DNA of 56,414 nucleotides from Anaerolineae bacterium clx_CAG2 (GTDB lineage Bacteria > Chloroflexota > Anaerolineae > JAAEKA01): assembly GCA_014155705.1 (NCBI GenBank), contig JAAEKA010000039.1, positions 1-56,414 of the forward strand, written 5' to 3'. Made by a program: the position numbers and the translations under genes. This document shows positions 30,207-55,012 of the stretch, in pieces. Within the stretch, counting starts at the first letter, position 1; each line of letters opens with the position of its first letter. Below the pieces are notes generated by a model. It was not told the origin of the DNA. It worked only from the letters and a program-made list of their open reading frames with translations, and did no database searches.

Positions 30207-30722
30207 GTGCGAAGACGACTATCCCTGGCGCTGTTGTTGGCGCTGACCCTGCTGGCGGCGCTGGCATTTACTGTCCATAGCCCGGCCGCTGCCAGTCCAG
30301 CAGATGCCCCGGCGGCCCAGCAGCCCGAAGGGCGCCCTGGACAACCCATCATCATTCGCTGGTCCACAGAGACTGAGGTCAACACCGCGGGTTTCAACGT
30401 CTATCGCGCGCCTGGCGAAGATGGGCCGTGGGAGAAAATCAATCAGCGGCTGATTCCCGGATCCCCCGACCCGCTGCGCGGCGGTAGCTATGTTTTTACC
30501 GACACCAATGTCATCTCTGGCATCGCTTACTGGTATGAGTTGGAGGAAGTGGAGTTGGGCGGCCGCGCTACCCGCCTGGAGCGCACCACGGCCACAGCCA
30601 AAGGGCAAGGGCTGTGGCCATTGGACGGCTTGCAATGCACCGGCGGCCTGTCGATGTTGCTGATTTTCAGCCTGGGCATGGTTGTGGTTGGACGCCGCAA
30701 GAGGTTGTATGAGTCTTCCTGA
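30207..30722 (+). CDS. Small secreted Ig/FN3-like protein with C-terminal TM anchor + RRKR
   Basis: GTG 30207 after GAGGAG. Signal peptide MRRRLSLALLLALTLLAALAF, beta-rich IIIRWSTETEVNTAGFNVYRA...YWYELEEV, tail LQCTGGLSMLLIFSLGMVVVGRRKR. Confidence 0.55.
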   Translation: MRRRLSLALLLALTLLAALAFTVHSPAAASPADAPAAQQPEGRPGQPIIIRWSTETEVNTAGFNVYRAPGEDGPWEKINQRLIPGSPDPLRGGSYVFTDTNVISGIAYWYELEEVELGGRATRLERTTATAKGQGLWPLDGLQCTGGLSMLLIFSLGMVVVGRRKRLYESS

Positions 30723-32373
30723 GCTATTATTGATCAGTCCTCCGGACTACGAAACGCGCGAGTTCCGCGGCGCTCAACCGCTGGGCATCGCCTACCTGGC
30801 GGGCATGCTGCGCGCCATAGGCATCACAACCGAGCTGCTGGACGCCAATGTCGGCGGCCCTATGCCTTTTGAGCAGTTTGCGGCTCGGGTCGAGAACTTC
30901 GTGGCTACTGTCAGACAGCATGGCGGCCGGCCGGTGGTAGGCGTATCGGTGGTATCGCAGGTCATCGCCACAGCGGCTGCCTTGGCCGCGCGCATCAAGA
31001 CCGTCGCCCCCGACGCGTTGGTGGTTATCGGCGGCTACCACCCTACCTTTGCCGACCGCGAGATTCTGGAGGACTTTGCAGATATCGACTTATGCGTGCG
31101 CGGCGAGGGCGAGCAGACGATCGTTGAGTTGATGAAGCACTGGCGGGCGGCCGGAACTGCGGACCCGCCGTTGCAGCCCGGTCGGATCGACTGGGGACAC
31201 ATCCTGGGCCTCACCTGGCGGCAAGGGGAGCAAATTATCGCTAACCCCAGCCGGCCCAACAACGTCAACCTGGACGCGTTGCCCTTTCCAGCGCGTGACC
31301 TGTTGCCGCCGCTCCACGCCTACGCGCCCTACGCCGACACCGTGGACGGCAAAATGCGCCTCAAGGCGTCGATGATCTCCAGTCGCGGCTGCCCCTTTCA
31401 CTGCAACTTCTGCTCGATCATTGCCTTCTACGGCGACGCAGGCGGGAAGCCCTGGCGCGGCCGTAGCGTCGAGAACGTAGTGGCCGAGATGGTCGAGTTG
31501 GCCGACCGGGATGGCGCCAGCCACTTCGAGTTCCAGGACGATAACTTCTTCGTGCGAGCCGACCGCGCCCTGGCCATCGTGGAGCAGTATGCCCAGACTG
31601 GGCGCGACTTCTCCTTTGCCTTCCTGACCCGCGCCGATCAGGTGGTCAAGGGAGAACGCTACTTCCCTGCCCTGCGCAAAGCCGGGCTGCGCTACGTCAG
31701 TGTAGGCATCGAGAGCGGCAGCGAAGCCTCGCTGGAGCGCATGGTCAAGCAGACGGGCGTCGAGATCAATCGCCGCGCTCTGCAAATCCTGCACGACAAC
31801 GATGTAGCTGCCCAGGTCGAGTTTATCATGTTCGAACCAGGCAGCACCCTGGACGACCTGCGTGATAACCTGCGCTTCATCGAGCAGCAAGGGCTGTTCG
31901 GCTATTTCCCGCCGTTGATCTTCGGCAAGCTGCTCTTGATGCCTGGTACGCCCGCGCGCGAGCAGTATCAGCGTGAGCAGGGCGTGAGTGGCAGCATCCA
32001 TCAGTCGCTATCCTATGACTTTGGCGATCCCCGTGTGAGCGAAGTTTACGAGCTGTTGGGTGACTTTCAGCGCCGCCTGGGCAATCCATGGTTTGAGCTG
32101 GCCTTCAACCTGCTGGACGGCATACCGGCCCTGGAGATCGACCTACAGCGCAATCAGAGCGGCGACGCGACCAACGGCAAGCTCAACGTGCGCCAACTGG
32201 CTCAACTCAAACTGGAGTTCTTTGCCCTGACCCGCATCCCCTATCAGTTGATGCGTGAGGGGCTGGCGGCGGCAGCGCAGGAGACGACAGCGGCCAGCCA
32301 TGCAAGCTTGCTGGCCAAGGCCGAGGCCGAGTTGGCCAACGTCAGTCAAAGGGTGCGGCAACTCCGACCGTAA
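30709..32373 (+). CDS. B12-binding domain radical SAM protein
   Basis: ATG 30709 overlaps the upstream gene by 14 nt. N-terminal Rossmann-like B12-binding region (LLISPPDY...GIAYLAGMLR...VVIGGYHPT) and radical-SAM cluster motif SSRGCPFHCNFCS. Confidence 0.75.
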   Translation: MSLPELLLISPPDYETREFRGAQPLGIAYLAGMLRAIGITTELLDANVGGPMPFEQFAARVENFVATVRQHGGRPVVGVSVVSQVIATAAALAARIKTVAPDALVVIGGYHPTFADREILEDFADIDLCVRGEGEQTIVELMKHWRAAGTADPPLQPGRIDWGHILGLTWRQGEQIIANPSRPNNVNLDALPFPARDLLPPLHAYAPYADTVDGKMRLKASMISSRGCPFHCNFCSIIAFYGDAGGKPWRGRSVENVVAEMVELADRDGASHFEFQDDNFFVRADRALAIVEQYAQTGRDFSFAFLTRADQVVKGERYFPALRKAGLRYVSVGIESGSEASLERMVKQTGVEINRRALQILHDNDVAAQVEFIMFEPGSTLDDLRDNLRFIEQQGLFGYFPPLIFGKLLLMPGTPAREQYQREQGVSGSIHQSLSYDFGDPRVSEVYELLGDFQRRLGNPWFELAFNLLDGIPALEIDLQRNQSGDATNGKLNVRQLAQLKLEFFALTRIPYQLMREGLAAAAQETTAASHASLLAKAEAELANVSQRVRQLRP

Positions 32374-44418: not shown

Positions 44419-44825
44419 TCATAGCACCTGGCAGATGCTCAGGTACTCGTCGCCGTCGCCACCGGGAGACAGCGCGCAGCAGGCCGCGTACGGGCTGAAG
44501 GGGTCGCGCTGTTTAGCCTGTCGGTCAGCGGCTTGGCGGTCGGCACGTAGACCAGCAGCCCCTCCAGCGGCACGTCGGCCTGGCCCGGCACATGCAAGAC
44601 CGCCAAGGCCGCGGTGCGGCTCTTGATGCTGCTCTCGCTGGCGTCCACTGCCACGCAGTGCTCGCTGGCTAGTTCCAGGCACAGGTCACGGTAGCGCCGG
44701 TCTGGATCGTAGACCACCAGGACGCCGGTCTGACGCAGGCGGGGGAGGAGCATGTCCTGTTGGATGAATGCTTTGATGCTCATCGTTTCCGGATTCAGGT
44801 GATAGAGAATGTCATCTGGGTGCAT
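44419..44825 (-). pseudogene. Frameshifted, truncated N-terminal stub resembling BREX PglZ (TIGR02687-like N-terminus)
   Basis: Frame 1 (44439..44825) reads ...GVLVVYDPDRRYRDLCLELASEHCVAVDASESSIKSRTAALAVL...LLVYVPTAKPLTD and then turns to junk. A second frame (44419..44682) continues QAKQRDPFSPYAACCALSPGGDGDEYLSICQVL-stop. The family assignment is from memory of the PglZ N-terminal pattern only. Confidence 0.35.
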
Positions 44826-44953
44826 TCAAAATGGGTTGGTGTAGGGGACGGGGGTGCCCCCGCCCCTACGGTGCATCTCAACCAGTCTTGAACACACCTA
44901 TGTCATTTGGCTTCGCCATTCAGGTTCGCCCGATTCGGGGGTTTGTCCTCCAA

Positions 44954-46456
44954 TCAGACTTGTTGGTCAGACGATTGACTAATGACGGTCAAGATTTCCT
45001 TGCAGTACCCCTCTGCCAATTGGCGTTCGTATTCTTGAAGCATCCAATCCCTATTGTGAGCAAGCGGATTCCTAAATTTGGCAAGCAACGTCGAACGTTG
45101 ATCCCAGTAATTCTTGTCTTTTCCGAAGAAGGGTTGGTAGATGTTCCAGGCAGCAAAGATGATTGCGAAAAGATCCCGCGGGTAGGTGAAATCGAGGAGA
45201 TTCCTTGATGCACGACTTCCGAAGGCTATCTCCTCTTTCTGCTGTGCTTGCCGACAACTGTCAAATGTTGCCCGTAGATTGGGATGGGCCTTTTCCATCT
45301 TCGAAACCCACTGATCACCATGCTGTTTGTTCATGGTGTTGGTGATTAGCCGCCTCAACGCGAGTTCAGTCTCTTTCCAGAGAGGCCATAGGTCGACCTG
45401 TCGCTCAATCAGCCTAAGATACGTCTGAAAATGGGGTGAAAATGCTGCATATGTATCTCCCGTTGTTGGATGTATTAGTCCGTAGCGCTGGAATTCTTCG
45501 ACTTCACTTTGCTTCACGTCATAAACAGGTCCGAAGAGAATCTGAAGTAGCTTCTCAAGAGTATAGTCTTCCCTTAGCAAATCAACCATTCGGTCATACT
45601 GGTCCAGGAATGAGTGTTCTAAATCCTCAGCCACACTATCCATCTGTATGCGTCCAGTCAAGCGATACTGTTCAACCATCTCGTAGCCAAGCATCTCAAG
45701 GAGAAAGGGATGACCACCCGCATAGAATCGCATCATGGCTCTTGTTTCATCGTTAAGAGCAATACCAATCGACCCGAGACGAGAAATTAGAAGATCAACG
45801 TCTGACTCCGTGAACATGCCAAGGTAGTGCTTGTGAAAAATACCGTCCAGCGTAGAAATCGCTTGCGTCTGAAGTTCAATATCACGGATTGAGCGACGAG
45901 ATGCTGTGATCAACGTCACTCGCCATTCTGGACGGTACGAAAGTTCGCGCAGACCTTGAAATCCTGAAATATCACCTTTGAACAGATGACGAGCATGGTC
46001 AAATTCGTCCAGAATAAACCAGACTCTTATGCCATCTAGTCGAACTTTCTCAAAGAATCGCTCTATACGAGCATACCCTCCGCTCCAAGATGCATCATCC
46101 TTTAGAGCGCGATCGGCAACCCGCTGGATTGGTGTAGATAGGCGATCAAGGTCCTCTAGCTCATCGGTACAGCGAACAACCATGGATTGAAAGAATTGTG
46201 CCGAGGAGTCATATTTCGCTAAGTTGATCCAGATGGGAACGATACTCCGTTGGTGCAGGTCGTGCTTGCGTTCCATTATGGATTTGTAAAGCAAACTGCT
46301 CTTGCCTATACGAGGCTCTCCGATGATTGCCAGATTGCCAGCTTCGATTGGACGAATCACTCTGTTTTCCACCACTCGCAGGTCTGATTCGCGGCCAATG
46401 AAGCGATCTTGGTGAACAATGATGCCGTAGTCTGAAAAAGGATTCTCGATATTCAT
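44954..46456 (-). CDS. P-loop NTPase (AAA_16/ATPase_2, STAND-like) with C-terminal HEPN-like (Swt1-type Rx4H) domain
   Basis: ATG 46454-46456 lies 11 nt after the upstream stop, with AGGAAG between. FIGRESDL...IIGEPRIGKSSLL (Walker A), VWFILDEFDH (Walker B), C-terminal LLAKFRNPLAHNRDW (Rx4H). Confidence 0.7.
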   Translation of the reverse strand: MNIENPFSDYGIIVHQDRFIGRESDLRVVENRVIRPIEAGNLAIIGEPRIGKSSLLYKSIMERKHDLHQRSIVPIWINLAKYDSSAQFFQSMVVRCTDELEDLDRLSTPIQRVADRALKDDASWSGGYARIERFFEKVRLDGIRVWFILDEFDHARHLFKGDISGFQGLRELSYRPEWRVTLITASRRSIRDIELQTQAISTLDGIFHKHYLGMFTESDVDLLISRLGSIGIALNDETRAMMRFYAGGHPFLLEMLGYEMVEQYRLTGRIQMDSVAEDLEHSFLDQYDRMVDLLREDYTLEKLLQILFGPVYDVKQSEVEEFQRYGLIHPTTGDTYAAFSPHFQTYLRLIERQVDLWPLWKETELALRRLITNTMNKQHGDQWVSKMEKAHPNLRATFDSCRQAQQKEEIAFGSRASRNLLDFTYPRDLFAIIFAAWNIYQPFFGKDKNYWDQRSTLLAKFRNPLAHNRDWMLQEYERQLAEGYCKEILTVISQSSDQQV

Positions 46457-46467
46457 GTTCGCTTCCT

Positions 46468-49400
46468 TTACTGGTGAGCTACCAGCCATTCCTTAAAGAT
46501 GCCCACCCTCACGCGGTAGTATTGACCTCGCTCCCGGTCGACGACCTCTCGCTTTACTAGATCATCAAGGATAAGGTCAATGGGCGTGTGGGTCTCGCAG
46601 ACCAAACTGCTACGACTGCAGGGGCCAACCTGACTATTCGCTGCCATAGCTGTTAGAACCTTGATGACATCATCATCGCCTATGGCGTCTCTAGAAGTGT
46701 CCCCAGAACTTATCAGATTGTCGAACTTGTCTAGGCTAAGCGCATTCACACCTGATATGAGATCACTTTTCAACTGATCCACATCTGCATCGGTTATCAC
46801 GCGAGCCCGCTTTCGATTCATGTACTCGACCAATCGATTACACACGATTTGAATGTAAAAGGGACTCCCTGCAGTCAAATCAAGAATCCTCTCAATTGCT
46901 CGCTCTCGATATCGGCTTTCGTCTTGTTTACCTGCAATCCGTATCGGCTCATCGATCAATCGGGTCGCGTCCTCAGGTCTTAAGTAGCTGACCCGTTCAT
47001 CTTGTGTGGTACCGAATTCATTGGGGAACTTCTGCTTGAACTTTGGCATTACGTCCTGCCCGGCTAGAACTGCGCTGAAGTATCCCTCTTGCAGAAGAGC
47101 TTTCCAGTTCTTCATGAACGATTCCGGTAGGGTCCCTTGGACTATTTGACTGTAGATGTACGAAAACTCATCAATCAAAAGCACAACCCGCGTGTTCTGC
47201 CAAGCCGTACTTCTTGCAGTCTCACGCTTAAAACGATCGAACACATCCTTGAAGAGCATTAGTGGGCTTGGATGTCCGTAAAACTCCTGGTCTTTTGGAA
47301 TCAAAATATCTAGCTCAGGACGGCCAGACTCCACAGCATCCTCAATGGCATACGTGAGTTTTGAGAGAATGCTTTTCAGTATTTGATAGAGTAACGGTGT
47401 CGAGGAGTGTTCATCAAGGATCGATCCAATGTTACCGACGTCGAGAATGAGCATGAAAGGATCTGACTGCAGCCGGATTTTGAGATGATGGAGAATTGAC
47501 GATTTTCCTGCCCGCTTTTGGCCGAAGATGACCACACATTTGCTTTGACTAGATGATTTCTGAATAGCGCTAGACACATTTTCAATTAACTCATCTCGTC
47601 CAAAGAACATCAGAGGGTCGCCCACAACTCCACCTTCGGCGTAAGCTGCATACGGATTCTCGATTTCCTCAAAGTCTGCTTCTGAGTAAAGCCTAATTGA
47701 GAAGTTGCTCATAGAAGATTGCGCTATGCGATCGGAACGCGTGCTATATTGAGCGTAAACCGGCATCGAGAAAGCCTGGGCTTCAAATGCTGCTTCAGTC
47801 ACACGCAAAGGTACGCGAAGAATCTGTTGATCACCTCCGCGTAAGGAGCGATTCAGTTGGATCTCAGGAATATCGACGTAGAACAAATCTGCGTCTTCCT
47901 GTATCACAAGTTCGAGCGACTCTGCTGGACTGCAGCCCAGTCGATTGCTGGCAACAATTTGAACCTCAATGTGTTGACTGGAATCTGGAATATAAGACTC
48001 GACCGCTAATCTTAAGGAGACTTGTGGAGTACTTCGCTCATATAGCTCCCGTAACCATGTTTCCGTTTTTCCTTGCACGACTTGAACAACTGGATGTAGT
48101 TCCTCGATTGAGAGTTTGGTTGGGTTATCCGCAATCTCTTTCAGCATATCTTGGCACCGACTGGCAATCTGAATACACAGACGTTCCTGCTCTTCAAATG
48201 AAATCTGCTTGCATAGATCAAGATTCATCTCCAAGACTTGAAGTATCTGGCGAGTACGCTGCTGATCTAGGTCGAGAAAAAGCCTTGGAATCAGTCCTGT
48301 CAGTCGCTTGATGGCGTCCTCGAGATAGGCAGTTGTCAGTTCCATGTGGTTTTGGAGAAAGCGAATCTCGCTTTGTACGCTGCGAAGTTCATCGATATTC
48401 CTTCGCACCAATTCATTCCAAAGACTCACGAAATCTTCAAGGCGTTTGAGTGGTGTCCGAGGCACCACACCATAGGACTTTAGATACTCCATAGCTAGCG
48501 CCTGAATAGTGTCTTTACTGTAGAGCCGGCTAAGGACTTTGTCAGCAGCGTAACGGCTTCGGGACACTAGATGCGCAATTGCGCCAAAAGCAAGATCACG
48601 TTGAGGGTGTTGCATCACGATTCGTTCGATGGCATGGTCGATGGTGGGAATCGTAGGGGTCATTGGAACAGAAGCTGGCCCTAATGCCACAAACAAATAT
48701 CTAACTAACGCGTTCACGGCGTCTTGTTCATCCCCCTTACTTCGACTTTGAACCGTATCATATCGATCATAGGACGTCAAAGCCTCACAGTAAAACTCAC
48801 GTGCTACATCAGGATGTCGTCCCACAATCACAGATGCATCGCCTCTGGAGGCAAAAGCACGACACAGGTATTTGTAGAATTCCCCGGATTGCTCTCCCTC
48901 TTCGGTCATTAGGGATATGAGCTTGGCAGCAGAGAGATAGTAGCCGGCTCGTTCAAGCGGTACCTTGGTACCAAGTTTCGTAGCTAGGTCTTCCAACTGC
49001 TGAACATGACTGCGCCTGAACTGGCCTCTTTGGACTATTTCAGGTGGAACGCCCTTGAAATCGCATTGATCTAGATAAAAGCGAACGAACCTACTGACTT
49101 CGCTCGAAAAACCTAGCAACGTTGACTGAATTATGATGTCGATTTGGGACGACTGACCAGTTGCCTGTGCTTGGCCAATTGCCTCCAAAACGCGAGCGGC
49201 TTGGTCGTCAGGGGATTGGTCCAGAACTCTTCGGAGACGCTTTTCAGCTTCGCCATATCGTCCCTGTTTGAAGAGGCAAATGGCGATGTTGGTTTGCACA
49301 TTGACGTTAGAAGGGTCAAGCTTCTGCAATTGCGTCAGAATCTTCTCAGCTTCAAGATATTGCTCAAGTTGCATGTAGCAATATCCGATTTGCCACATAA

Positions 49401-51330
49401 TGGGTCCCTTTTGAGCGGCAGTCTGAAGGGAACTGAGTTTCTGATTCAATAGATTGATAGCTTCAGCATGCTGACCAGAACTCTGATAGAAGGTGATCAA
49501 CAGGTTGTTAACTTTTTGTGGTTCTGATATCTTGCTCCGATGCCTGAGCAAGATATTGATAGCATCCTGAGGGCGGCCCTGTTGAGCATATACGTTTGCG
49601 AGATCCTTGACTGCGCTCGCGACGTTGTCACCTTGCTGGATTGCCTGTTCAAAGAGATGAGACGCTCGTTCCAGATCTCGCTCTATGAGTTGCACTCGCT
49701 TGGCACGTGCATAAGGATTGGAGCCTTTGGGAACACCAACTATTCTTGCATTCTCGCGCCAAGTCGCATACAGGCTTTGAGCATTTGGATAGTCGGGTTC
49801 GAGAGCTAGTACCTGTCGAATGTTGGCGATGGCTACTGGGTATTCACCTTCGCTGGCGGATTTCACGGCTAACTCGAACCGTTCTTGGACGGACCGGTTG
49901 ATTGAGACATCGACTGCCAACATGCCTCTTGGCGACTGCGCTTTTCTGAACACTATCGGGATGCTATCGCCGGGTTTCATATTAGACAACTTGGCGAGAA
50001 GGTCACTGTCAGTTATTGCACTCCTATGAAAAAAGTAGTTCCCCTCAACCTGATCACGAAGAAACCCATAGTTGCGATCTGGAAGGTATTTGTACACATA
50101 CCCCGATATTAGCTTTGACTGCGGAGTAGGCTCAGGGTTGGGTGGGTTTTTCAGAGATTGTGTCTCGTTCTCCGCTCTTAGAAAATCTTCGGATGGCGAA
50201 ATCTGTAGTCCACGTATACCATCTTGAGCCAGTACTGTCGCTGGCTTACCTTGTAGTGCCAGCTCCGCGATTCTGCGAGCATCCTCATCATGTTTCTGTC
50301 TTAGCAATAGATAGATGGTCGTATCTCTCAGAAGCTGAGCTTCGTTCTCTGAGAATTCTATCTGAGGCTTTTTTAGCCAATCGAACACCCGTGACTGAAT
50401 CTGGTGGCGGTCAATCAAGCGAACGAAGACATACCAACAGTCTTCATCATTAATTGCGGCTCCCGAAGTGTAATACCGCAACAGCGAAACGCAGGCTAGA
50501 GGCTCCAACTGCCTTTGCATTGAAGCAGATGCCAGATTGTACCAATCATCCGAGGTATCAGAAATGAGTGCTGCGCTGCGGTACTCATACAAGGCCTTGT
50601 CAAGATTACCATTCAGCCAGTAGGCATACCCCAAGACGCGATGGACCGGTGCAGATTCGGGATGTAGTTCCTCAAGGGCTTCAAGCTCAGTGATAATCGG
50701 TTGAATCCTCCCAAACTTGGGATGAGTCTCGTTCACTCTCGATGCGTAGGCAAACTTCTCCCTGGCGCGGTTCCATATCTTCTCTGCATCATGCCTATGA
50801 CTGCCTTGGAACTCACTTGATGGCATGACGAAGTCAACAGGCTTCACGTTGATGCCCGCTGATTGTGTTCTGGCATCGAACCGCGCCTCAATGCCAAGCA
50901 GCATTCTGAGAACATCTGGGTTGGGCACGGGTTGGATTTCTGAAGATGGGGTCAATTGCGTAACCCGCCCTGGGACAGGCACCAAGCTCTTAGCAGGTCC
51001 GTTTCCAGCAAGTTTGCTCTCAGCAGGTTCGTCTTCGACAGGTCCGCTTTCAGCAGATTTCTCTTTGACAGGTCTGCTTTCAGCAGGTTCCTCATGATTC
51101 GTCTCAGTAGGCAATAACTCTTGAGCGCCTTCAGTGACCGGGTGTCGTATAATCTCCCATGCACCAATCATCGTCGTGATGATAGTGGTGGGTGAGCCAT
51201 TACGCTCTAGTGTGACGTGTTCACGTCCAATTTCAACCAGGGTACCGCTGATTTCTCGACCATTTGTCAGAGTGAAAACGACTTCGCTCTCCAACGGTAC
51301 TTGGCGCTGAATTGTACTGCTGATGCTCAT
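46468..51330 (-). CDS. 1620-aa multidomain protein: beta-rich N-terminus, acidic decapeptide repeats, TPR-like repeats, cold-shock domain, TPR repeats, long helical region, C-terminal P-loop NTPase + wHTH-like end
   Basis: Single uninterrupted ORF. CSD: ISGYVYKYLPDRNYGFLRDQVEGNYFFHRSAI. TPR-like A/Y/L periodicity (e.g. AINILLRHR...AEAINLLNQ...YLEAEKILTQLQKLDP). NTPase: FFGRDELIENV...VVIFGQKRAGKSSILHHL and VVLLIDEFSYI. Confidence 0.75.
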   Translation of the reverse strand: MSISSTIQRQVPLESEVVFTLTNGREISGTLVEIGREHVTLERNGSPTTIITTMIGAWEIIRHPVTEGAQELLPTETNHEEPAESRPVKEKSAESGPVEDEPAESKLAGNGPAKSLVPVPGRVTQLTPSSEIQPVPNPDVLRMLLGIEARFDARTQSAGINVKPVDFVMPSSEFQGSHRHDAEKIWNRAREKFAYASRVNETHPKFGRIQPIITELEALEELHPESAPVHRVLGYAYWLNGNLDKALYEYRSAALISDTSDDWYNLASASMQRQLEPLACVSLLRYYTSGAAINDEDCWYVFVRLIDRHQIQSRVFDWLKKPQIEFSENEAQLLRDTTIYLLLRQKHDEDARRIAELALQGKPATVLAQDGIRGLQISPSEDFLRAENETQSLKNPPNPEPTPQSKLISGYVYKYLPDRNYGFLRDQVEGNYFFHRSAITDSDLLAKLSNMKPGDSIPIVFRKAQSPRGMLAVDVSINRSVQERFELAVKSASEGEYPVAIANIRQVLALEPDYPNAQSLYATWRENARIVGVPKGSNPYARAKRVQLIERDLERASHLFEQAIQQGDNVASAVKDLANVYAQQGRPQDAINILLRHRSKISEPQKVNNLLITFYQSSGQHAEAINLLNQKLSSLQTAAQKGPIMWQIGYCYMQLEQYLEAEKILTQLQKLDPSNVNVQTNIAICLFKQGRYGEAEKRLRRVLDQSPDDQAARVLEAIGQAQATGQSSQIDIIIQSTLLGFSSEVSRFVRFYLDQCDFKGVPPEIVQRGQFRRSHVQQLEDLATKLGTKVPLERAGYYLSAAKLISLMTEEGEQSGEFYKYLCRAFASRGDASVIVGRHPDVAREFYCEALTSYDRYDTVQSRSKGDEQDAVNALVRYLFVALGPASVPMTPTIPTIDHAIERIVMQHPQRDLAFGAIAHLVSRSRYAADKVLSRLYSKDTIQALAMEYLKSYGVVPRTPLKRLEDFVSLWNELVRRNIDELRSVQSEIRFLQNHMELTTAYLEDAIKRLTGLIPRLFLDLDQQRTRQILQVLEMNLDLCKQISFEEQERLCIQIASRCQDMLKEIADNPTKLSIEELHPVVQVVQGKTETWLRELYERSTPQVSLRLAVESYIPDSSQHIEVQIVASNRLGCSPAESLELVIQEDADLFYVDIPEIQLNRSLRGGDQQILRVPLRVTEAAFEAQAFSMPVYAQYSTRSDRIAQSSMSNFSIRLYSEADFEEIENPYAAYAEGGVVGDPLMFFGRDELIENVSSAIQKSSSQSKCVVIFGQKRAGKSSILHHLKIRLQSDPFMLILDVGNIGSILDEHSSTPLLYQILKSILSKLTYAIEDAVESGRPELDILIPKDQEFYGHPSPLMLFKDVFDRFKRETARSTAWQNTRVVLLIDEFSYIYSQIVQGTLPESFMKNWKALLQEGYFSAVLAGQDVMPKFKQKFPNEFGTTQDERVSYLRPEDATRLIDEPIRIAGKQDESRYRERAIERILDLTAGSPFYIQIVCNRLVEYMNRKRARVITDADVDQLKSDLISGVNALSLDKFDNLISSGDTSRDAIGDDDVIKVLTAMAANSQVGPCSRSSLVCETHTPIDLILDDLVKREVVDRERGQYYRVRVGIFKEWLVAHQ
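49736..49785 (+). repeat. Internal copy of the 50-bp sequence that also forms the last 50 bp of the window
   Basis: ccaactattcttgcattctcgcgccaagtcgcatacaggctttgagcatt is identical at 49736-49785 and 56365-56414, in the same orientation. Confidence 0.9.
51007..51096 (-). repeat. Three degenerate 30-bp tandem repeats encoding xxxPAESxPV-like decapeptides
   Basis: Units 51007-51036, 51037-51066 and 51067-51096 translate on the minus strand to HEEPAESRPV / KEKSAESGPV / EDEPAESKLA. Confidence 0.75.
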
Positions 51331-51333
51331 TGC

Positions 51334-51684
51334 TCATGTTCCTTTCATTTGTGTGCGAGCAATCGCATGTTCGATTTCATCTTGAGGAGTTTTGCGTCTT
51401 CGCCACACACCCTCCCCACCGCGCACCCACAAGAACCGCCGCACTTTATGCCGCGCGGCCAGTTCCACATCGACCGCGCACTTCTCGACGACGCGCGCCG
51501 GCCACAGGGCCAACGCCAGGCTCAGGTGATCGTAGTCGCCACGCGCCAGCTCGGACCAGCGGCCGCCCCCCAGGTCCATGCCGTACTCGTGCTGCAACTG
51601 GCGCGTGAACTCCTCGCTCAGCGGCGAGCGCGCGTCAGCCACAAAACGAGCCAAGCGGTTGCGGGTGGGTTGATCGAAGGGCAT
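51334..51684 (-). pseudogene. Truncated/chimeric ORF; N-terminus resembles the helical N-terminus of type IIG / BREX PglX-like methyltransferases
   Basis: MPFDQPTRNRLARFVADARSPLSEEFTRQLQHEYGMD... is GC-rich. The last ~23 codons (KTPQDEIEHAIARTQMKGT) are encoded by the A/T-rich cassette edge, so the ORF crosses a composition junction near 51390-51405. The family resemblance is from memory only. Confidence 0.3.
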
Positions 51685-51783
51685 GGGAAATGGTTAATGG
51701 TGAATCGGTAACGGTTAATGGTTAATTGGGTGAATGGCTGACTTGGTGATTGGCGCTTGTGATCCTCTACCTGCTGCAACTGC

Positions 51784-52615
51784 TCACGCTTCACGCTTCA
51801 CTGCCCTCTGCCTACTGCCCGTCAGGATAATATCACCAGCCACGCTGTACTGCAAGGTCGGGATCTGGCTGAGGTTGCGCTGGCTGGCCCAGAGCTTGAC
51901 GGCGTTGGCGACGTGGCGGTTGGCGTCCTGGACGGTGATGAAGCCCTTGCTGTCGCGGTCGGCCGCGCTGGCCAGGGCCTCCAGCAGGTAGTGGGTGAGA
52001 ACGCTGCGCTCGCGCGGGCGCCATTCGTAGCTGACCCGGCCCTGCTTGCACGAGGCCAGGATGGCCATGCCCTCGGCCTGCTCGAAGACGCGCTGGATGA
52101 ACTCCGGCGTCATGGGCTGCGGCCCCTTCTGGCCGATGTCCGCGCCCGAGTGGCAGGCGTCCAGCAGCAGCACCTTGGCCCGGGCCGGCGCAGCCTCCAT
52201 GATCTGCTTGACGCGCGTCACGAAGACGGCCGTGTCGCCCAGCACCAGATGTCGGCCATCGCGCGCCACCAGCTAGCTCTCGCCGCCGGCCGCATCGCCG
52301 TGGCCGCTGTAATAGACCAGCAGCAGGTCATCCCGCTCCGTGGCACCGGCGATGGCTTGCAGCGCGGCCAGGATGTTGGCGCGTGTCGGCTTCTCCTCCG
52401 TGTTGTCAGTGACAAGGCGGATACGCGCCGGGTCGAAGCCGCCCGCGATCATGCCCTCGCGCGTCGCTTCCACGTCCTGGACGCAGACCTGGAGGGGGCT
52501 GAGCGCTGGCAGCCTTGTATTCCTCCAGCATGGCTTGGCGCTGGTCTTCCAGCGTTTGGCGCTTGATCTGGGCGAAGGATGAACTGGCGGGTGCGTTATT
52601 CACGGCTGGCGTCAA
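51784..52615 (-). pseudogene. Caspase-like (peptidase C14) gene disrupted by an in-frame TAG and an upstream frameshift
   Basis: 52273..52473 (…DDLLLVYYSGHGDAAGGES) and 51784..52269 (LVARDGRHL…VLLLDACHSGAD…) are in the same frame, separated only by TAG 52270-52272. His (YSGHG) and Cys (DACHSG) dyad motifs are present. The N-terminal coiled-coil-like ORF 52406..52615 is in another frame. Confidence 0.65.
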
Positions 52616-52675: not shown

Positions 52676-55012
52676 CTACTCGTGAATGACCTGGATGCGG
52701 TCTTTCTCAGCGATTCCTGCAGGCAGATCGATGGTGTGCAAGCCGAGCCACCTAAAGTCTGGCGTAGCGGTTGCCTGCGCGCACAACTCCCGCTGCTTCT
52801 GGTCAAAGAAGTCGCTAGCCTCGGGATCGGCCACGACGGCGACCACGTCGAAGGGCTCGTCGTTGGTGTTTGTCTGGAAGCTGCTGGCAACCCGCCATTG
52901 GCCGTTTTCTATGATGGTGTGTTCCCCTGCGCAGGCATTGGATGACTGGGGAAGCCACTTGCCCCAGATGGTGTAGACCAGGACCCAGATGGCATGGTCG
53001 GGCGGCACGTTGCTATAAATGCCGCTGGCGGTCTGCGAATCGGTGACCGTCTGGCCATCGCGCGGGCTCGTAATGCGCAGTGCGCCCGGCAGTTGAACGC
53101 CTGAAAGATCGGGCGCGCGCAAGATCTCATCGGACCGGATCACCATGATGCGCTCTACCTCGTCGACTCCATCAGGCAGCTCGGCGAAGCCTGGCCACTT
53201 CTTCTCTGGATCGTCGCACCAGCGCTGGATTTCGGCCACGACCGCGGCATTGCCCTCGGCTGTGGCCGTGGTCACGACAATCTCGAAGGGCTGGCCCACG
53301 TCCTGTTCGATGGGCAAGCCCACCTGGATGTGCTGCTCCCAGCGCCCGCCCTGCATCGCGGCGCCGTCGTTGCCCTCGCAGTGGTTGTAGGACTGCGGGT
53401 AGAGCCTGGCAGAGCTGCCGCCGGCCACGGGCGGCGGCACGACGAAGACCCGGATGACCTCCTCCTGGTTCTCAGGGTACGTGCCCAACAGTGAGCTGGC
53501 ATAGGGCGCCAGATCGCCGTCCGCCAGGTTCAGAACGGTGAGCACTGCGGCTGTTGCAGTCGGTGTAGGGGTTGCACTTGGCGTTGCTGTGGCGCTGGGA
53601 GTGCTGGCAAGCACAGGCGACACAACACTTCCTGTCCCAATAGCCGATGCTGTATGAGTTTGCGTTTCCTCGGCTGATAAAGTTGACGCAGATGTCGAAG
53701 TTGCCATCGCTACCGCAGTTACCACCGATGGATTGAGCCAAGCAACCAAATCACGTCGAACATTCGACTTTCCCAATACAATCAGAGCGCCGATCACCAA
53801 CATCGTAGCTACTGAAGCACCGACTCTTCTGAGCCAATTGACTGGCCTAGGCTCTACTTCAACTTGAAAAGGAATGGAGGCAATTCTGTACTTCTGCTGC
53901 ACGAAGGCAGAGGCAGGAATACCCTCCATCTCAACATTCGTGTGCAACACTCCCGTGCCGACAAAGATCCCTCCTTCATGTAACTCCACATGTACCGTCA
54001 GTTTCCCCTGCTTCCGCGGAGTAAGCTGAAAGGTAACAATCCCGGAGTCACCGTCGGTTGGGATGACAATCTTTTTCTCCTGCATTGGCGGCATGAAATC
54101 ATTGGCAACCACTCTCACAAGTAACCTGGCCGCACGTACTGTCCCTTGCTTGTCGATGGGAAAGTTAACCTCGAATGACCGAGTCCTGACATCGTCAGGA
54201 GTGGACATGTAGTCATCTTCAACTTCAAGCCTTACCCGCAGTCCGCCGGAGATCGGACGCCGGACCATTGCAAGCAACTCTGTTGCCCGGCCGACCTGCG
54301 CACTGCTGGGCATCGCGGCGTCCAGCATCCTTTGCCGTCTATCCTCTCTTGGCGGGAAGAGCGAAGCTAGCGGGGGCAAATCCCCCGTGTCTCGCCGCAT
54401 TGCAGCGAAGACCACCTGACGCGGGTCGCCATACCAGGCCAGCAGCTTGGGCTTACTAGATTCGTCCAGGGCCTGTAGGTCTATCCGATTACTCCCTAGA
54501 TCGAATGCAGTTTGCATGTCGCGACCGTAAGCCAGGGCCTGGTAGAAAGATGCCGCAAAGTTGCGCGATGCTATGTCGCCGATTACCTCTGGTATTCCAA
54601 CAACGCAGTCAATGTGCGCAGCAATAGCCTTGGCTTGCCGCTCAGAGTAGCAGGCATTGAGCACCACACAGCGCAGATTGTCGCGCAGAATGGAGAAGAG
54701 CTGGCTAAGGGCCTCCGGTGGCACGGCATACTCGCGGCCGCGGTCGTCCTCCAAGAGCAGTTGGCCGGCCTGGCTGCCGTGGCCGCTGAAGTGAACAATC
54801 TGCGGCTTATGGCGCAACAGCAGTTCCTGCAGATCTGCAACACGCACTGCCCAGTGTTGGCGCAGGTCGAACTCGTCGCGGTAGTCGGCCTGGCGCAGCA
54901 CTTGATCGATTGCGCGGACTTCCTCATCCAAGCGCAGGCGAGTCGTAGTAGACGGGTTTGCGGCCAGAAAGAGGATGACGATCTTTTCAGAGGTTGAGTG
55001 CGTAGTGGCCAT
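52676..55012 (-). CDS. CHAT-like (minimal caspase-fold) domain - beta-sandwich region - single TM - Thr/Ala/Ser/Pro linker - extracytoplasmic domain protein
   Basis: N-terminal ILFLAANPSTTTRLRLDEEVRAIDQVL...IVHFSGHGSQAGQLLLED...CVVLNACYSERQA (His/Cys dyad pattern of CHAT). TM segment VGASVATMLVIGALIVLG. Then an ATSTSASTLSAEETQTHTAS...TPSATATPSATPTPTATA linker. Confidence 0.6.
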   Translation of the reverse strand: MATTHSTSEKIVILFLAANPSTTTRLRLDEEVRAIDQVLRQADYRDEFDLRQHWAVRVADLQELLLRHKPQIVHFSGHGSQAGQLLLEDDRGREYAVPPEALSQLFSILRDNLRCVVLNACYSERQAKAIAAHIDCVVGIPEVIGDIASRNFAASFYQALAYGRDMQTAFDLGSNRIDLQALDESSKPKLLAWYGDPRQVVFAAMRRDTGDLPPLASLFPPREDRRQRMLDAAMPSSAQVGRATELLAMVRRPISGGLRVRLEVEDDYMSTPDDVRTRSFEVNFPIDKQGTVRAARLLVRVVANDFMPPMQEKKIVIPTDGDSGIVTFQLTPRKQGKLTVHVELHEGGIFVGTGVLHTNVEMEGIPASAFVQQKYRIASIPFQVEVEPRPVNWLRRVGASVATMLVIGALIVLGKSNVRRDLVAWLNPSVVTAVAMATSTSASTLSAEETQTHTASAIGTGSVVSPVLASTPSATATPSATPTPTATAAVLTVLNLADGDLAPYASSLLGTYPENQEEVIRVFVVPPPVAGGSSARLYPQSYNHCEGNDGAAMQGGRWEQHIQVGLPIEQDVGQPFEIVVTTATAEGNAAVVAEIQRWCDDPEKKWPGFAELPDGVDEVERIMVIRSDEILRAPDLSGVQLPGALRITSPRDGQTVTDSQTASGIYSNVPPDHAIWVLVYTIWGKWLPQSSNACAGEHTIIENGQWRVASSFQTNTNDEPFDVVAVVADPEASDFFDQKQRELCAQATATPDFRWLGLHTIDLPAGIAEKDRIQVIHE

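What the first reader, a model, noticed from the sequence alone, without database searches (positions are those of the whole stretch)
44870..51405. Low-GC two-gene cassette: 1620-aa CSD/TPR/NTPase giant plus paralogous NTPase with HEPN-like tail - candidate undescribed conflict/defence module
Between about 44.87 and 51.40 kb, codon usage switches from the GC-rich host style to A/T-rich third positions. Exactly two co-oriented, tightly coupled genes fill the segment (TAA 46468-46470, AGGAAG, ATG 46456).

Gene 1 (46468..51330) contains, in order:
- a small beta-rich N-terminus
- acidic PAES decapeptide repeats
- TPR-like repeats
- a cold-shock domain (GYVYKYLPDRNYGFLRDQVEGNYFFHRSAI)
- more TPR repeats and a long helical region
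- a C-terminal P-loop NTPase (FFGRDE..GQKRAGKSS; VVLLIDEFS)

Gene 2 (44954..46456) carries the same NTPase type at its N-terminus (FIGRESD..GEPRIGKSS; WFILDEFD). It ends in an Rx4H HEPN-type motif (FRNPLAHNRDW).

An NTPase switch, a repeat sensor and an RNase-type effector together follow the logic of STAND/Avs-like immunity. Here, though, the repeats and a nucleic-acid-binding CSD lie N-terminal to the NTPase, and the effector sits on a second, paralogous NTPase. I do not recognise this pair as any named defence system. Its neighbours are decayed BREX-like stubs, a caspase pseudogene and a CHAT protein, which is typical defence-island context.
Basis: partly seen in the sequence, partly recalled or inferred. 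Interest (0 to 1): 0.85.

Follow-up and report, generated by a model that had tools for sequence, protein, structure and literature searches.

The report
Two-gene ATPase–HEPN RNase cassette in BREX
A horizontally acquired, AT-rich pair of genes sits inside the remains of a BREX phage-defence locus: a giant cold-shock-domain/TPR/ATPase protein and a related ATPase ending in a HEPN RNase domain. The pair recurs as a fixed unit in many bacterial and archaeal phyla and is most likely an uncharacterised, ATP-gated RNA-cutting defence module.

Summary
Window 44.87-51.40 kb drops to about 48% GC against flanks of about 63% (GC3 0.48 against 0.87). It holds exactly two co-oriented genes, 11 nt apart.

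- **Gene 1** (1620 aa) contains, in order: an Sm/SH3-like barrel, an acidic repeat linker, TPR, a cold-shock domain, TPR, a family-specific helical domain, an Ig-like sandwich and a STAND/ORC-like ATPase.
- **Gene 2** (500 aa) contains a related ATPase, a winged helix and a Swt1-type HEPN domain with an invariant RNxxxH motif.

The pair is a fixed unit:
- Gene 1 lies directly upstream of gene 2 in all but one of the 40 genome loci that have a full gene-2 homolog and enough upstream DNA. In three of these it is reduced to a remnant.
- These loci span more than 12 phyla, including archaea.
- The median gap is 8 nt, the two gene trees correlate (r = 0.92), and no third gene is conserved.
- The pair is poorer in GC than its host in 30 of 32 genomes.

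In the window the pair lies between a PglX C-terminal stub and a PglZ N-terminal stub. In a relative (L064) the same cassette lies in a type 1 BREX locus between pglX (itself split by a second insert) and intact pglZ-brxL.

No PADLOC or NCBIfam system model covers the pair. The only literature trace I found is one table line from 2013.

Verdict: a real, uncharacterised candidate defence module, and a new variant of NTPase-gated HEPN systems. The function is inferred, not shown.

The parts
44870..51400 (-). Low-GC cassette (about 48% GC in a host of about 63% GC) holding exactly two genes
   Evidence: Composition profile, 100-nt windows, GC3.
46468..51330 (-). Gene 1: 1620-aa sensor/switch protein
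   Evidence: ORF. About 50 full-length homologs at 40-77% identity. Domain map from family HMMs.
51127..51330 (-). Gene 1 residues 1-68: small beta-barrel, Sm/SH3-like. Retained in every form of the protein, including the short ones.
   Evidence: Alignment A4. Weak profile hits to the BirA C-terminal domain, Lsm and the EDC3 LSm domain. 332 representatives in 1.84 billion proteins.
51016..51093 (-). 30-nt tandem repeat, 2.6 copies, encoding the acidic PAES-type decapeptide linker
   Evidence: TRF. This linker region is not conserved in the family.
50131..50943 (-). Gene 1 residues 130-400: TPR-like helical repeats (block A)
   Evidence: Weak TPR/BTAD hits. Conserved family block.
49891..50118 (-). 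Gene 1 residues 405-480: cold-shock (OB-fold) domain with RNP1/RNP2-like YGF and FFH motifs
   Evidence: PF00313 at E = 4.7e-4. PF00313 recorded in many homologs. G422, F423, F433 and F434 are nearly invariant.
49120..49890 (-). Gene 1 residues 481-737: canonical TPR array (block B)
   Evidence: TPR_19 at 4.5e-22, TPR_16 at 5.4e-20.
48034..49092 (-). Gene 1 residues 747-1099: all-alpha domain found only in this family
   Evidence: AF2 mean pLDDT 91.5 for the 506-residue model. No convincing PDB or viral structural match. Sequence homologs are only members of this family.
47689..48021 (-). Gene 1 residues 1104-1214: Ig-like beta-sandwich
   Evidence: AF2 model. Foldseek hits to TRAP-beta, complement C3 MG domains and integrin calf domains.
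46471..47628 (-). Gene 1 residues 1235-1620: STAND/ORC-like P-loop NTPase plus a C-terminal winged-helix-like end. Walker A is GQKRAGKSS (47497-47523). Walker B is LLIDEF (47164-47181).
   Evidence: AAA_16 at 1e-7 and nSTAND1 at 4e-7, 30.4 bits against a cut-off of 27.1. G1275, K1276, S1277, D1387 and E1388 are invariant.
44954..46456 (-). Gene 2: 500-aa NTPase-HEPN effector protein. Its ATG lies 11 nt after the gene-1 stop and follows AGGAAG.
   Evidence: ORF and junction. More than 679 homologs; the top 120 are at least 59% identical.
45857..46456 (-). Gene 2 residues 1-200: STAND/ORC-like NTPase core. Walker A is GEPRIGKSS (46295-46321). Walker B is FILDEFD (45998-46018). A LITASRR motif resembles the hhhToR motif.
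   Evidence: Weak AAA_22, AAA_16, ATPase_2, NACHT and NB-ARC hits. Foldseek top hits are PAB2304 (2qen) and ORC/Cdc6. Invariant residues.
44957..45388 (-). Gene 2 residues 357-500: Swt1-type HEPN domain. The RNPLAH (Rx4H) motif is at 45056-45073.
   Evidence: PF18731 at 2e-5. PDC-M34B at 1.1e-9. R462 and H467 are invariant. The AF2 model shows a helical bundle with the motif just before the last helix.
44841..44869 (-). GC-rich 12-bp hairpin at the downstream composition border. It may be a terminator or a junction element.
   Evidence: RNAfold of the intergenic region. It was not picked up by the consensus terminator scan.
44439..44825 (-). PglZ N-terminal stub (matches model positions 1-96 of 840), GC-rich. 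It marks the BREX side downstream of the cassette.
   Evidence: PADLOC PglZ at 9.7e-29. 65% identical to the intact PglZ of L064.
51334..51684 (-). PglX C-terminal stub (matches model positions 1249-1314 of 1332). It marks the BREX side upstream of the cassette.
   Evidence: PADLOC PglX at 6e-22. Matches the PglX C-terminal half of L064.

Best explanation
The segment is a horizontally mobile, self-contained two-gene module that most likely works as an ATP-gated RNA-cleaving defence or abortive-infection system.

**Roles of the two proteins (inferred)**
- Gene 1 is the sensor and switch. Its cold-shock domain, flanked by TPR arrays, a family-specific helical domain and an Ig-like sandwich, would bind an infection-associated single-stranded nucleic acid or nucleoprotein. 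These domains sit upstream of a catalytically intact STAND/ORC-like ATPase.
- Gene 2 is the effector. It has a related ATPase with a winged helix and one Swt1-type HEPN domain. HEPN RNases need two domains to build an active site.

**Proposed sequence (inferred)**
1. Ligand binding to gene 1 licenses nucleotide-dependent co-assembly of the two related ATPase modules.
2. Co-assembly brings HEPN domains of gene-2 subunits together.
3. RNA cleavage is switched on, stopping translation and phage growth.

**Shown**
- The domain content.
- Intact catalytic motifs.
- Strict pairing of the two genes.
- Foreign base composition.
- Embedding in BREX.

**Inferred**
- The ligand.
- Hetero-oligomerisation.
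- RNase activity.
- The phage phenotype.
For: **Pairing**
- A gene-1 homolog lies directly upstream, on the same strand, in all but one (L037) of the 40 genome loci that have a full-length gene-2 homolog and enough upstream DNA.
- It is complete or sensor-deleted in 36 of these, and a remnant or IS-separated in 3 (L026, L031, L045).
- This includes a clade only about 30% identical.
- No third gene is conserved.
- The median intergenic gap is 8 nt, range -4 to +15.
- Pairwise distances of the two genes correlate, r = 0.92 over 31 loci.

**Catalytic integrity**
- Walker A and B are invariant in both ATPases.
- RNxxxH is invariant in the HEPN domain.
- The cold-shock domain's aromatic binding residues are nearly invariant.

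**Relatedness of the ATPases**
- hhalign gives 94% probability.
- The gene-1 NTPase HMM hits gene-2 homologs.
- The gene-2 model resembles PAB2304 and ORC/Cdc6, proteins that assemble with paralogs.

**Accessory and mobile character**
- The distribution across phyla is patchy.
- GC is lower than the flanks in 30 of 32 genomes, by 0.108 on average.
- Frequent decay: split, IS-interrupted or truncated copies in L026, L028, L031, L039, L041, L045 and L049.
- Integrase, IS or toxin-antitoxin remnants lie next to some copies.

**Defence link**
- The cassette lies between PglX and PglZ stubs in the window.
- In L064 it lies between pglX (split by a second insert) and intact pglZ-brxL.
- Genes embedded in BREX, DISARM or RM loci were validated as defence systems in 7 of 9 tests (bioRxiv 10.1101/2024.01.29.577857). 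HEPN RNases are recurrent auxiliary effectors in BREX loci (PMC12839542).
- The same HEPN type is attached to a DruE/DrmA/BrxH-like SNF2 helicase in L056.
- A stand-alone TPR plus cold-shock-domain gene matching a PADLOC model lies upstream of the pair in L013.
Against: - There is no experimental evidence of any kind.
- Outside this lineage the neighbours are mostly housekeeping genes. Only a minority of 112 flanking ORFs hit PADLOC models.
- There are no copies in 50,697 phage records, 72,556 plasmid records or IMG/VR.
- Both proteins are unusually well conserved across phyla (gene 2 about 60%). That is not what a sensor in an arms race with phage proteins usually shows, although it fits a conserved nucleic-acid cue.
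- Forms of gene 1 lacking the whole TPR/cold-shock/helical region arose repeatedly. The proposed sensor is therefore dispensable for keeping the ORF, and perhaps for function.
- The gene-2 structure model is mediocre (pLDDT 66), and the HEPN fold was not independently matched to a solved structure.
Confidence: 0.5

Rival explanations
1. A selfish toxin-antitoxin-like addiction module. The HEPN RNase of gene 2 is a toxin held in check by gene 1, and the pair persists through post-segregational or linkage effects rather than by protecting against phage.
For: - HEPN domains are classic toxins of type II toxin-antitoxin pairs (PMC3710099).
- The operon is a tight two-gene unit.
- The distribution is patchy and driven by horizontal transfer, with a low-GC offset.
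- Some copies sit next to other toxin-antitoxin genes and IS elements.
- Decayed copies are frequent.
Against: - A 1620-aa multidomain ATPase is far beyond what an antitoxin needs.
- There is no MNT or small labile partner.
- Both ATPases keep intact catalytic motifs.
- The family is absent from plasmids, where addiction modules thrive.
- L037 carries gene 2 without gene 1, and L026 carries it with only a gene-1 stub. A bare toxin should not be tolerated in that state.
- Toxin-antitoxin behaviour and abortive infection are not mutually exclusive.
Confidence: 0.17
2. A cellular RNA-surveillance or stress-response machine, for example cold or starvation-linked RNA turnover. The cold-shock domain/TPR ATPase would recruit the HEPN RNase to host RNAs, with no role in conflict.
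For: - Sequence conservation is very high across phyla.
- Most neighbours are housekeeping genes.
- Cold-shock domains and Sm-like barrels are typical RNA-metabolism modules.
- Eukaryotic Swt1 is an RNA quality-control nuclease (PMC3710099).
Against: - Only 63 matching loci, about 40 with a full gene 2, turned up in a scan of 185,579 species genomes.
- The pair is consistently AT-richer than its host.
- Pseudogenisation and IS disruption are frequent.
- The pair is embedded in BREX.
- Synteny is not conserved.

All of these fit an accessory, mobile gene pair rather than housekeeping.
Confidence: 0.13
3. A dedicated accessory of BREX: a backup effector that only works together with PglX, PglZ and BrxL, for example triggered when BREX is inhibited.
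For: - The cassette sits exactly between pglX and pglZ in two diverged genomes. The cassettes are 70% identical in DNA and the PglZ proteins 65% identical.
- Backup RNase effectors inside BREX loci have been described (PMC12839542).
Against: - BREX genes flank the pair only in the window and in L064, out of about 70 loci examined.
- In the window the BREX genes have decayed to stubs while both cassette genes remain intact. The pair is therefore maintained without BREX.
Confidence: 0.08

Closest known systems
Avs/AVAST and other prokaryotic STAND (NLR-like) antiviral ATPases
   Same: - A P-loop NTPase of the STAND/ORC-Cdc6 class, combined with TPR-type repeats and a nuclease-type effector.
- The expected logic: ligand-induced, nucleotide-dependent oligomerisation activates the effector.
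- Spread by horizontal transfer.
   Different: - Avs proteins are single polypeptides ordered effector-NTPase-sensor, and they sense phage proteins.
- Here the repeats and a cold-shock domain lie N-terminal to the NTPase.
- The effector is C-terminal on a second, related NTPase.
- Two ATPases are obligatorily paired.
- No Avs model in PADLOC matches either protein.
Swt1-like HEPN family with 'STAND-ATPase, TPR, S1' associations (Anantharaman et al. 2013, PMC3710099, Table 1: Npun_F6454, MED222_16016, Desac_1927)
   Same: The same HEPN subfamily (PF18731) linked to a STAND ATPase, TPR repeats and an OB-fold nucleic-acid-binding domain. This is very probably the same family or a sister family.
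   Different: - It is only a table entry: no operon description, mechanism or experiment.
- I could not retrieve those three proteins to test identity with the present family.
PADLOC candidate PDC-M34 (B protein), from the 'embedded genes' screen
   Same: The HEPN domain of gene 2 matches PDC-M34B (E = 1.1e-9, residues 375-489). The system was also predicted from embedding in BREX, DISARM or RM loci.
   Different: - The model is a HEPN protein of 147-192 aa.
- Nothing matches the ATPase part of gene 2 or any part of gene 1 beyond the P-loop.
PADLOC model PDLC01170: 'TPR repeats containing protein fused to cold shock-like domain (OB-fold)'
   Same: The same TPR plus cold-shock domain combination as the sensor half of gene 1. 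A full-length member (E = 6.3e-87) lies directly upstream of the pair in L013.
   Different: - It is a stand-alone protein of about 370-460 aa without an ATPase.
- Gene 1 itself does not hit this model.
- I could not determine which PADLOC system the model belongs to.
CoCoNuT type IV restriction-like systems (PMC11090510)
   Same: They are predicted to target RNA, and they combine cold-shock domain-like OB folds with HEPN and other nucleases and with NTPases.
   Different: CoCoNuTs are built around McrBC-type GTPases with coiled coils. None of those components is present here.
HEPN fused to the DUF499 ATPase in Hma/'BREX-related' systems (PMC12839542; PMC3710099, Ava_2192)
   Same: A Swt1/Abi2-class HEPN joined to an ORC/Cdc6-like AAA+ ATPase within methylation-based defence loci.
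   Different: - There the HEPN is N-terminal on a DUF499/BrxC-like ATPase, with an obligatory methyltransferase and helicase.
- Here the HEPN is C-terminal, and the partner is a cold-shock domain/TPR ATPase.
- No methyltransferase or helicase is conserved.

Membership tests
HEPN superfamily, Swt1-like family (PF18731) | Conserved Rx4-6H motif placed before the last core helix of a four-helix bundle | tested here: met
   RNPLAH at residues 462-467. R462, H467, N468 and R469 are invariant in 31 homologs. The AF2 model shows a helical bundle at 357-499 with the motif just before the last helix, 475-499.
HEPN superfamily, Swt1-like family (PF18731) | Score above the Pfam gathering threshold | tested here: inconclusive
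   The window protein scores 25.3 bits against a cut-off of 27.5, E = 2e-5. PF18731 is recorded for most of the 120 closest homologs, and NCBI names members 'Swt1 family HEPN domain-containing protein'.
HEPN superfamily, Swt1-like family (PF18731) | Metal-independent endoRNase activity | not testable with these tools
   Needs biochemistry.
STAND / ORC-Cdc6-like P-loop NTPases | Walker A (GxxxxGK[ST]) and Walker B (hhhhDE) intact | tested here: met
   Gene 1 has GQKRAGKSS and LLIDEF. Gene 2 has GEPRIGKSS and FILDEFD. All are invariant.
STAND / ORC-Cdc6-like P-loop NTPases | Family-model match, or structural match to the NTPase plus helical plus winged-helix unit | tested here: met
   The gene-1 fragment passes nSTAND1 (30.4 against 27.1 bits) and AAA_16 (33.1 against 32.6). 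Gene 2 has only sub-threshold hits (AAA_22, AAA_16, ATPase_2, NACHT, NB-ARC), but its Foldseek top hits are PAB2304 (2qen) and ORC/Cdc6 at probability 1.0, with low TM-scores.
Avs/AVAST antiviral STAND proteins | Single polypeptide: N-terminal effector, central NTPase, C-terminal TPR sensor | tested here: not met
   In gene 1 the sensor repeats are N-terminal to the NTPase. The effector is C-terminal on a separate protein.
Avs/AVAST antiviral STAND proteins | Match to Avs profile models | tested here: not met
   No Avs model appears among the PADLOC hits for either protein.
PADLOC PDC-M34 candidate system | All component genes match their models over full length | tested here: not met
   Only the HEPN domain of gene 2 matches M34B. 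No M34A hit was found.
BREX (type 1), as a core component | Homology to BrxA, BrxB, BrxC, PglX, PglZ or BrxL | tested here: not met
   Neither protein hits any BREX model. BREX genes accompany the pair in only 2 of about 70 loci.
Defence systems 'embedded' in BREX/DISARM/RM loci (guilt by embedding) | Located between core genes of an otherwise complete multi-gene defence system, on the same strand | tested here: met
   L064 reads PglX (two pieces) - gene 1 - gene 2 - PglZ - BrxL, all on one strand. The window keeps the PglX and PglZ stubs on either side.
HEPN-MNT type II toxin-antitoxin | Adjacent minimal nucleotidyltransferase antitoxin | tested here: not met
   No MNT domain is present in either protein, and no such gene is conserved next to them.
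Cold-shock domain (PF00313) | OB-fold with RNP1 and RNP2 aromatic motifs, and a score above threshold | tested here: inconclusive
   20.4 bits against a cut-off of 27. The motifs Y-G-F and F-F-H are present and nearly invariant. PF00313 is recorded for about 20 homologs. This part was not modelled structurally.

The most novel reading that the evidence does not exclude
The pair is a split and permuted NLR-like immune receptor that senses nucleic acid rather than protein.
- An ORC-like ATPase carrying a cold-shock domain would detect phage single-stranded RNA or DNA (or a nucleoprotein).
- It would then recruit a paralogous ATPase-HEPN subunit into a heteromeric ring, whose assembly dimerises the HEPN domains and releases RNase activity.
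- The universally retained N-terminal Sm/SH3-like barrel would act as the ring-forming or coupling element.

This would be a bacterial and archaeal defence principle distinct from Avs, CBASS, CRISPR type III/VI and toxin-antitoxin systems.
Probability: 0.25. Interest if true: 0.75.

Novelty: new variant of a known kind. Interest (0 to 1): 0.58.

Why it matters
If the pair is a working defence system, three things follow.
- It adds a widespread module, found in Chloroflexota, Cyanobacteria, Latescibacterota, Nitrospirota, Acidobacteriota, Spirochaetes, Bacteroidota and several archaea, to the known repertoire.
- Its layout is unusual: two obligatorily paired, related STAND/ORC-like ATPases divide sensing and killing between them, with a cold-shock domain in the sensor.
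- That layout points to direct nucleic-acid sensing by an NLR-like switch, which is poorly documented in prokaryotes.

The locus also shows an embedded cassette outliving its host BREX system. The constant offset of about 11 GC points across hosts from 37% to 75% GC is a useful signature for finding similar mobile modules.

For annotation, both families currently carry uninformative names ('tetratricopeptide repeat protein', 'ATP-binding protein', 'Swt1 family HEPN domain-containing protein').

Tried and rejected
- **Named-system match.** PADLOC and NCBIfam scans of both proteins and of distant homologs gave only domain-level hits: the HEPN part of PDC-M34B, and P-loop-only hits to mad8, PDC-S01 and DS8.
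- **Third conserved gene.** All-against-all clustering of ORFs from 64 loci found none.
- **BREX as a general context.** tblastn with the L064 PglX, PglZ and BrxL proteins against all loci found nothing beyond L064.
- **General defence-island enrichment.** The 112 nearest neighbours are mostly metabolic. The four mad2 hits probably come from one syntenic Latescibacterota lineage. No background rate was available, so enrichment could not be quantified.
- **Phage or plasmid carriage.** No hits.
- **Solved-structure relatives by sequence.** None for gene 2. Only weak SH3/Lsm hits for the N-terminal barrel.
- **Structural identification of the helical domain at 747-1099.** A high-confidence model found no convincing PDB or viral match.
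- **Independent structural confirmation of HEPN.** Foldseek on the gene-2 model was dominated by ATPase hits, and the model is only moderately confident.
- **Promoter and terminator consensus scans.** Not above chance.
- **Short gene-1 forms as an ancestral 'core' clade.** Rejected: they are scattered in the NTPase tree and are independent internal deletions.
- **Organism identity of the window.** Not recovered.
- **Literature.** Nothing on this pair in Kaur et al. 2020, the 2026 STAND survey, the 2026 BREX survey or DefensePredictor.


Full report
**1. The observation**

The window has two long ORFs on the minus strand: 46468..51330 (1620 aa) and 44954..46489. The second most plausibly starts at the ATG at 46456. 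That ATG lies 11 nt after the TAA of the first gene and follows AGGAAG, which gives 500 aa.

GC is 0.47-0.50 between 45 and 51 kb and 0.55-0.69 everywhere else. In 100-nt steps the switch happens within about 100 nt at each end, near 44.87 kb and 51.38 kb. Third-position GC is 0.48 for both genes, against 0.87 for the adjacent MFS transporter and 0.67 for the CHAT gene.

The 'decapeptide repeats' correspond to a 30-nt tandem repeat of 2.6 copies at 51016-51093.

**2. Anatomy of gene 1**

| Residues | Domain | Evidence |
|---|---|---|
| 1-68 | small beta-barrel | see below |
| about 69-130 | acidic, poorly conserved linker | |
| 130-400 | TPR-like block | weak TPR/BTAD hits |
| 405-480 | cold-shock domain | PF00313 E = 4.7e-4, below threshold |
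| 481-737 | canonical TPR block | E down to 4.5e-22 |
| 747-1099 | all-alpha domain | AF2 model |
| 1104-1214 | Ig-like beta-sandwich | Foldseek |
| 1235-1620 | P-loop NTPase | AAA_16 and nSTAND1, both just above threshold |

HMMs built from the family alignment show that this order is conserved in the long homologs.

- **N-terminal barrel.** Its profile gives only weak hits to solved structures: the BirA C-terminal SH3-like domain (E = 0.004), a designed SH3, Lsm proteins and the EDC3 LSm domain. Its sequence pattern (V-x-F-x-L-K-x-G-x-E-x-S-G-x-L-V-E-I-G-x-D-H-V-x-L) fits an Sm/SH3-like barrel. This is an inference.
- **Cold-shock domain.** The weak score in this protein is backed by PF00313 hits recorded in about 20 homologs and by near-invariance of the YGF and FFH motifs.
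- **Residues 735-1240.** The AlphaFold model of this stretch is very confident (pLDDT 91.5, pTM 0.84).
  - Foldseek recognises only the sandwich: TRAP-beta, complement MG domains and integrin calf domains.
  - The 350-residue helical domain has no convincing match in the PDB or in viral models.
  - At sequence level that helical domain occurs only in this family.

**3. Anatomy of gene 2**

- Residues 1-200 form a P-loop NTPase with sub-threshold hits to AAA_22, AAA_16, ATPase_2, NACHT and NB-ARC.
- Residues 357-500 match HEPN_Swt1 (25.3 bits against a cut-off of 27.5) and the PADLOC model PDC-M34B (E = 1.1e-9).
- In an alignment of 31 homologs, Walker A (G51, K52, S53), Walker B (D150, E151) and R462, H467, N468, R469 of the RNPLAHNR motif are invariant.
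- The AF2 model is only moderate (pLDDT 66).
- Its best structural neighbours are the Pyrococcus Walker-type ATPase PAB2304 (2qen) and archaeal and eukaryotic ORC/Cdc6.
- The HEPN region is a helical bundle with the Rx4H motif just before the last helix.

The two NTPases are related. hhalign aligns the conserved NP[FY]-x-x-Y-x-x-G-x-[IV]-V ... F-x-G-R lead-in and Walker A at 94% probability, and the gene-1 NTPase HMM detects several gene-2 homologs. 'Paralogous' is acceptable in this loose sense.

**4. The pair is a unit**

- **Family sizes.** Gene 2 has at least 679 relatives in the 90%-clustered protein collection, and the top 120 are all at least 59% identical. Gene 1 has about 50 full-length relatives at 40-77% identity. 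Many contig lengths coincide between the two lists.
- **Genome scan.** A scan of one genome per species (185,579 species) returned 63 loci.
- **Adjacency.**
  - All but one (L037) of the 40 loci with a full-length gene-2 homolog and enough upstream DNA carry a gene-1 homolog immediately upstream on the same strand.
  - This includes a divergent clade in which both proteins are only about 30% identical to the window proteins: L040, L042-L045 and L050.
  - In L026 only an N-terminal stub of gene 1 remains.
  - In L031 the pair is frameshifted.
  - In L045 an IS630-type transposase has inserted between the two genes.
- **No third partner.** Clustering all ORFs from the loci shows that no third gene is conserved.
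- **Coupling.** Across 29 loci the gap between the genes has a median of 8 nt, range -4 to +15. Pairwise divergences of the two proteins correlate with r = 0.92.
- **Hosts.** These include many Chloroflexota, filamentous Cyanobacteria, Latescibacterota, Nitrospirota, Desulfobacterota, Acidobacteriota, Spirochaetes, Bacteroidota, Gammaproteobacteria, Binatia and three archaeal lineages.

**5. Accessory and mobile character**

- In 30 of 32 loci with enough flanking DNA the pair is more than 3 GC points poorer than its surroundings, and it is never richer by that margin.
- The mean offset is -0.108.
- The pair's GC still tracks host GC (r = 0.84).
- Split, truncated or IS-disrupted copies are common.
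- Integrase fragments, IS elements or small toxin-antitoxin genes lie next to some copies.
- No copy was found in phage genomes, plasmids or IMG/VR.
- Short gene-1 forms that keep only the N-terminal barrel and the NTPase are scattered through the NTPase tree. They are at least five independent in-frame deletions of the whole sensor region.

**6. Context in the window and in a relative**

In the window:
- The 128-aa ORF downstream (44439-44825) is the first about 96 residues of PglZ (E = 9.7e-29).
- The 116-aa ORF upstream (51334-51684) carries the last about 70 residues of PglX (E = 6e-22).
- Further upstream lie a C-terminal caspase fragment and a CHAT protein.
- The remaining 43 kb of the window is ordinary metabolism, exopolysaccharide synthesis and signalling.

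In the relative L064, a contig carrying the second-closest homologs (cassette 70% identical in DNA):
- The order is PglX - gene 1 - gene 2 - PglZ - BrxL, on one strand.
- The BREX genes are at 0.60-0.64 GC and the cassette at 0.45 GC.
- The '649-aa' gene there is the C-terminal half of PglX, so pglX is itself split by a second low-GC insert.

The cassette was therefore embedded between pglX and pglZ of a type 1 BREX system in the common lineage. In the window the BREX genes have since been reduced to stubs, while both cassette genes stayed intact.

BREX genes accompany the pair in no other locus examined. Elsewhere the neighbours are mainly housekeeping genes. A minority hit PADLOC models: methyltransferases, mad2/3/6, a NERD-UvrD protein and PD-T4-6.

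**7. What it most likely does**

Established knowledge used here:
- HEPN domains are metal-independent RNases that act as dimers with a composite Rx4-6H site. They serve as effectors of abortive infection, toxin-antitoxin and CRISPR systems (PMC3710099).
- STAND/ORC-type ATPases are nucleotide-dependent oligomerisation switches.
- Cold-shock domains bind single-stranded nucleic acids.
- Genes nested inside BREX, DISARM or RM loci were confirmed as defence systems in 7 of 9 tests (bioRxiv 10.1101/2024.01.29.577857).
- HEPN RNases recur as auxiliary effectors in BREX loci (PMC12839542).

Putting this together with the anatomy, the best-supported model has three steps:
1. Gene 1 is a sensor and switch that recognises an infection cue through its cold-shock domain and repeat region.
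2. Nucleotide-dependent co-assembly with gene 2 follows, through the related ATPase modules.
3. Co-assembly juxtaposes the HEPN domains and turns on RNA cleavage.

Every step after 'the domains are present, intact and always paired' is inference.

Points that weaken the model:
- Sequence conservation is high.
- Most contexts are non-defence.
- Sensor-less forms recur.

Rival readings are set out in the rival-explanations section with the results that would refute them:
- a toxin-antitoxin-like selfish module;
- a cellular RNA-surveillance machine;
- a BREX-dependent backup effector.

**8. Comparison with known systems**

- The pair works like an NLR/Avs-type switch but fails the Avs architecture test: the order of effector, NTPase and sensor differs, it is not a single polypeptide, and no Avs model hits it.
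- It belongs to the Swt1-like HEPN family at domain level.
- Anantharaman et al. 2013 list 'STAND-ATPase, TPR, S1' partners for this HEPN family. This is very likely the same or a sister family, but it is only a table entry.
- PADLOC's PDC-M34B covers only the HEPN domain.
- PADLOC's PDLC01170 ('TPR fused to cold shock-like domain') is a separate stand-alone protein. It happens to sit upstream of the pair in L013.
- CoCoNuTs share the cold-shock domain plus HEPN theme but are McrBC-based (PMC11090510).
- The HEPN-DUF499 ATPases of Hma/'BREX-related' systems share the HEPN plus ORC-like ATPase theme. They differ in domain order and in their obligatory partners (PMC12839542).
- I found no description of this two-gene module in the STAND, BREX or machine-learning defence surveys I searched.

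**9. Verdict**

This is a real, conserved and mobile two-gene module, and a credible but untested defence candidate. It is best classed as a new variant of NTPase-gated HEPN systems rather than a categorically new kind.

Its interpretation is reasonable but overstated in three places:
- on the generality of the defence-island context;
- on the module being completely unrecorded;
- on the strength of the HEPN and cold-shock domain calls in this particular sequence.

Noticed in passing
window 44439-44825 and 51334-51684; L064 1-16656: The cassette is bracketed by a PglZ N-terminal stub and a PglX C-terminal stub. In L064 the same cassette sits in a type 1 BREX locus between pglX and pglZ, followed by brxL. 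The embedded cassette has outlived its host BREX system in the window genome.
   Followed up: yes
L064 2000-3500: In L064 pglX is itself split by a second low-GC (0.46) insert of about 1.5 kb carrying a 129-aa ORF with no Pfam family on record. The PglX C-terminal half resumes afterwards.
   Followed up: partly
32 loci (L003-L051) and the window: The pair is about 11 GC points poorer than its flanks in 30 of 32 genomes, across hosts from 37% to 75% GC, while still tracking host GC (r = 0.84). The offset is constant rather than a fixed foreign composition.
   Followed up: yes
L003 8473-9984, L014 8285-9973, L021 8022-9992, L054 8333-9979, L062 8503-9930, L027 6540-9968: Gene-1 forms lacking the whole TPR/cold-shock/helical region arose at least five times independently. 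All are in frame, and all keep the N-terminal barrel and the NTPase. It is unclear whether they are decay products or functional sensor-less variants.
   Followed up: partly
window 44841-44869: A 12-bp GC-rich hairpin lies exactly at the low-GC/high-GC border, between the gene-2 stop and the PglZ-stub start. It may be a terminator or an insertion-junction element.
   Followed up: partly
window 51690-51745 (- strand): Several CCATTAACC-like words are repeated in the AT-rich stretch just upstream of the PglX stub. They may be a regulatory or junction repeat.
   Followed up: no
window 51784-52269 and 52676-55012; L034 2076-2618: The window carries a C-terminal caspase (Peptidase_C14, EACC1-associated type) fragment and a 778-aa CHAT-domain protein with a long uncharacterised C-terminal part. 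A CHAT homolog (39% identity) also lies just upstream of the pair in a Phaeodactylibacter genome.
   Followed up: partly
L013 3780-5174: A stand-alone TPR plus cold-shock-domain protein lies directly upstream of gene 1. It is a full-length match to PADLOC PDLC01170 (E = 6.3e-87).
   Followed up: partly
L045 8956-10053: An IS630-type transposase gene has inserted between gene 1 and gene 2 in a Spirochaetia genome and truncates the start of gene 2.
   Followed up: yes
L056 411-4124: The same Swt1-type HEPN domain (PDC-M34B, E = 5e-12) forms the C-terminus of a 1237-aa SNF2-family helicase with DruE/DrmA/BrxH-like hits. The HEPN module is therefore shared among different NTP-driven defence-type proteins.
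   Followed up: partly
L037 2230-5385: In a Caldilinea aerophila MAG a full gene-2 homolog follows a 530-aa ORF that has no detectable similarity to gene 1 and no PADLOC hit. This ORF may be an alternative partner.
   Followed up: partly
window 30682-32373: A B12-binding radical SAM protein gives a PADLOC PDC-M51A hit (E = 8e-13). Given its housekeeping neighbours, this is probably generic domain similarity.
   Followed up: no
proteins P0247, P0269, P0291, P0315, P0321: The profile of the gene-1 N-terminal barrel also finds unrelated proteins of about 320 aa. These have two tandem copies of a similar SH3-like barrel between helical end domains. Their function is unknown.
   Followed up: no
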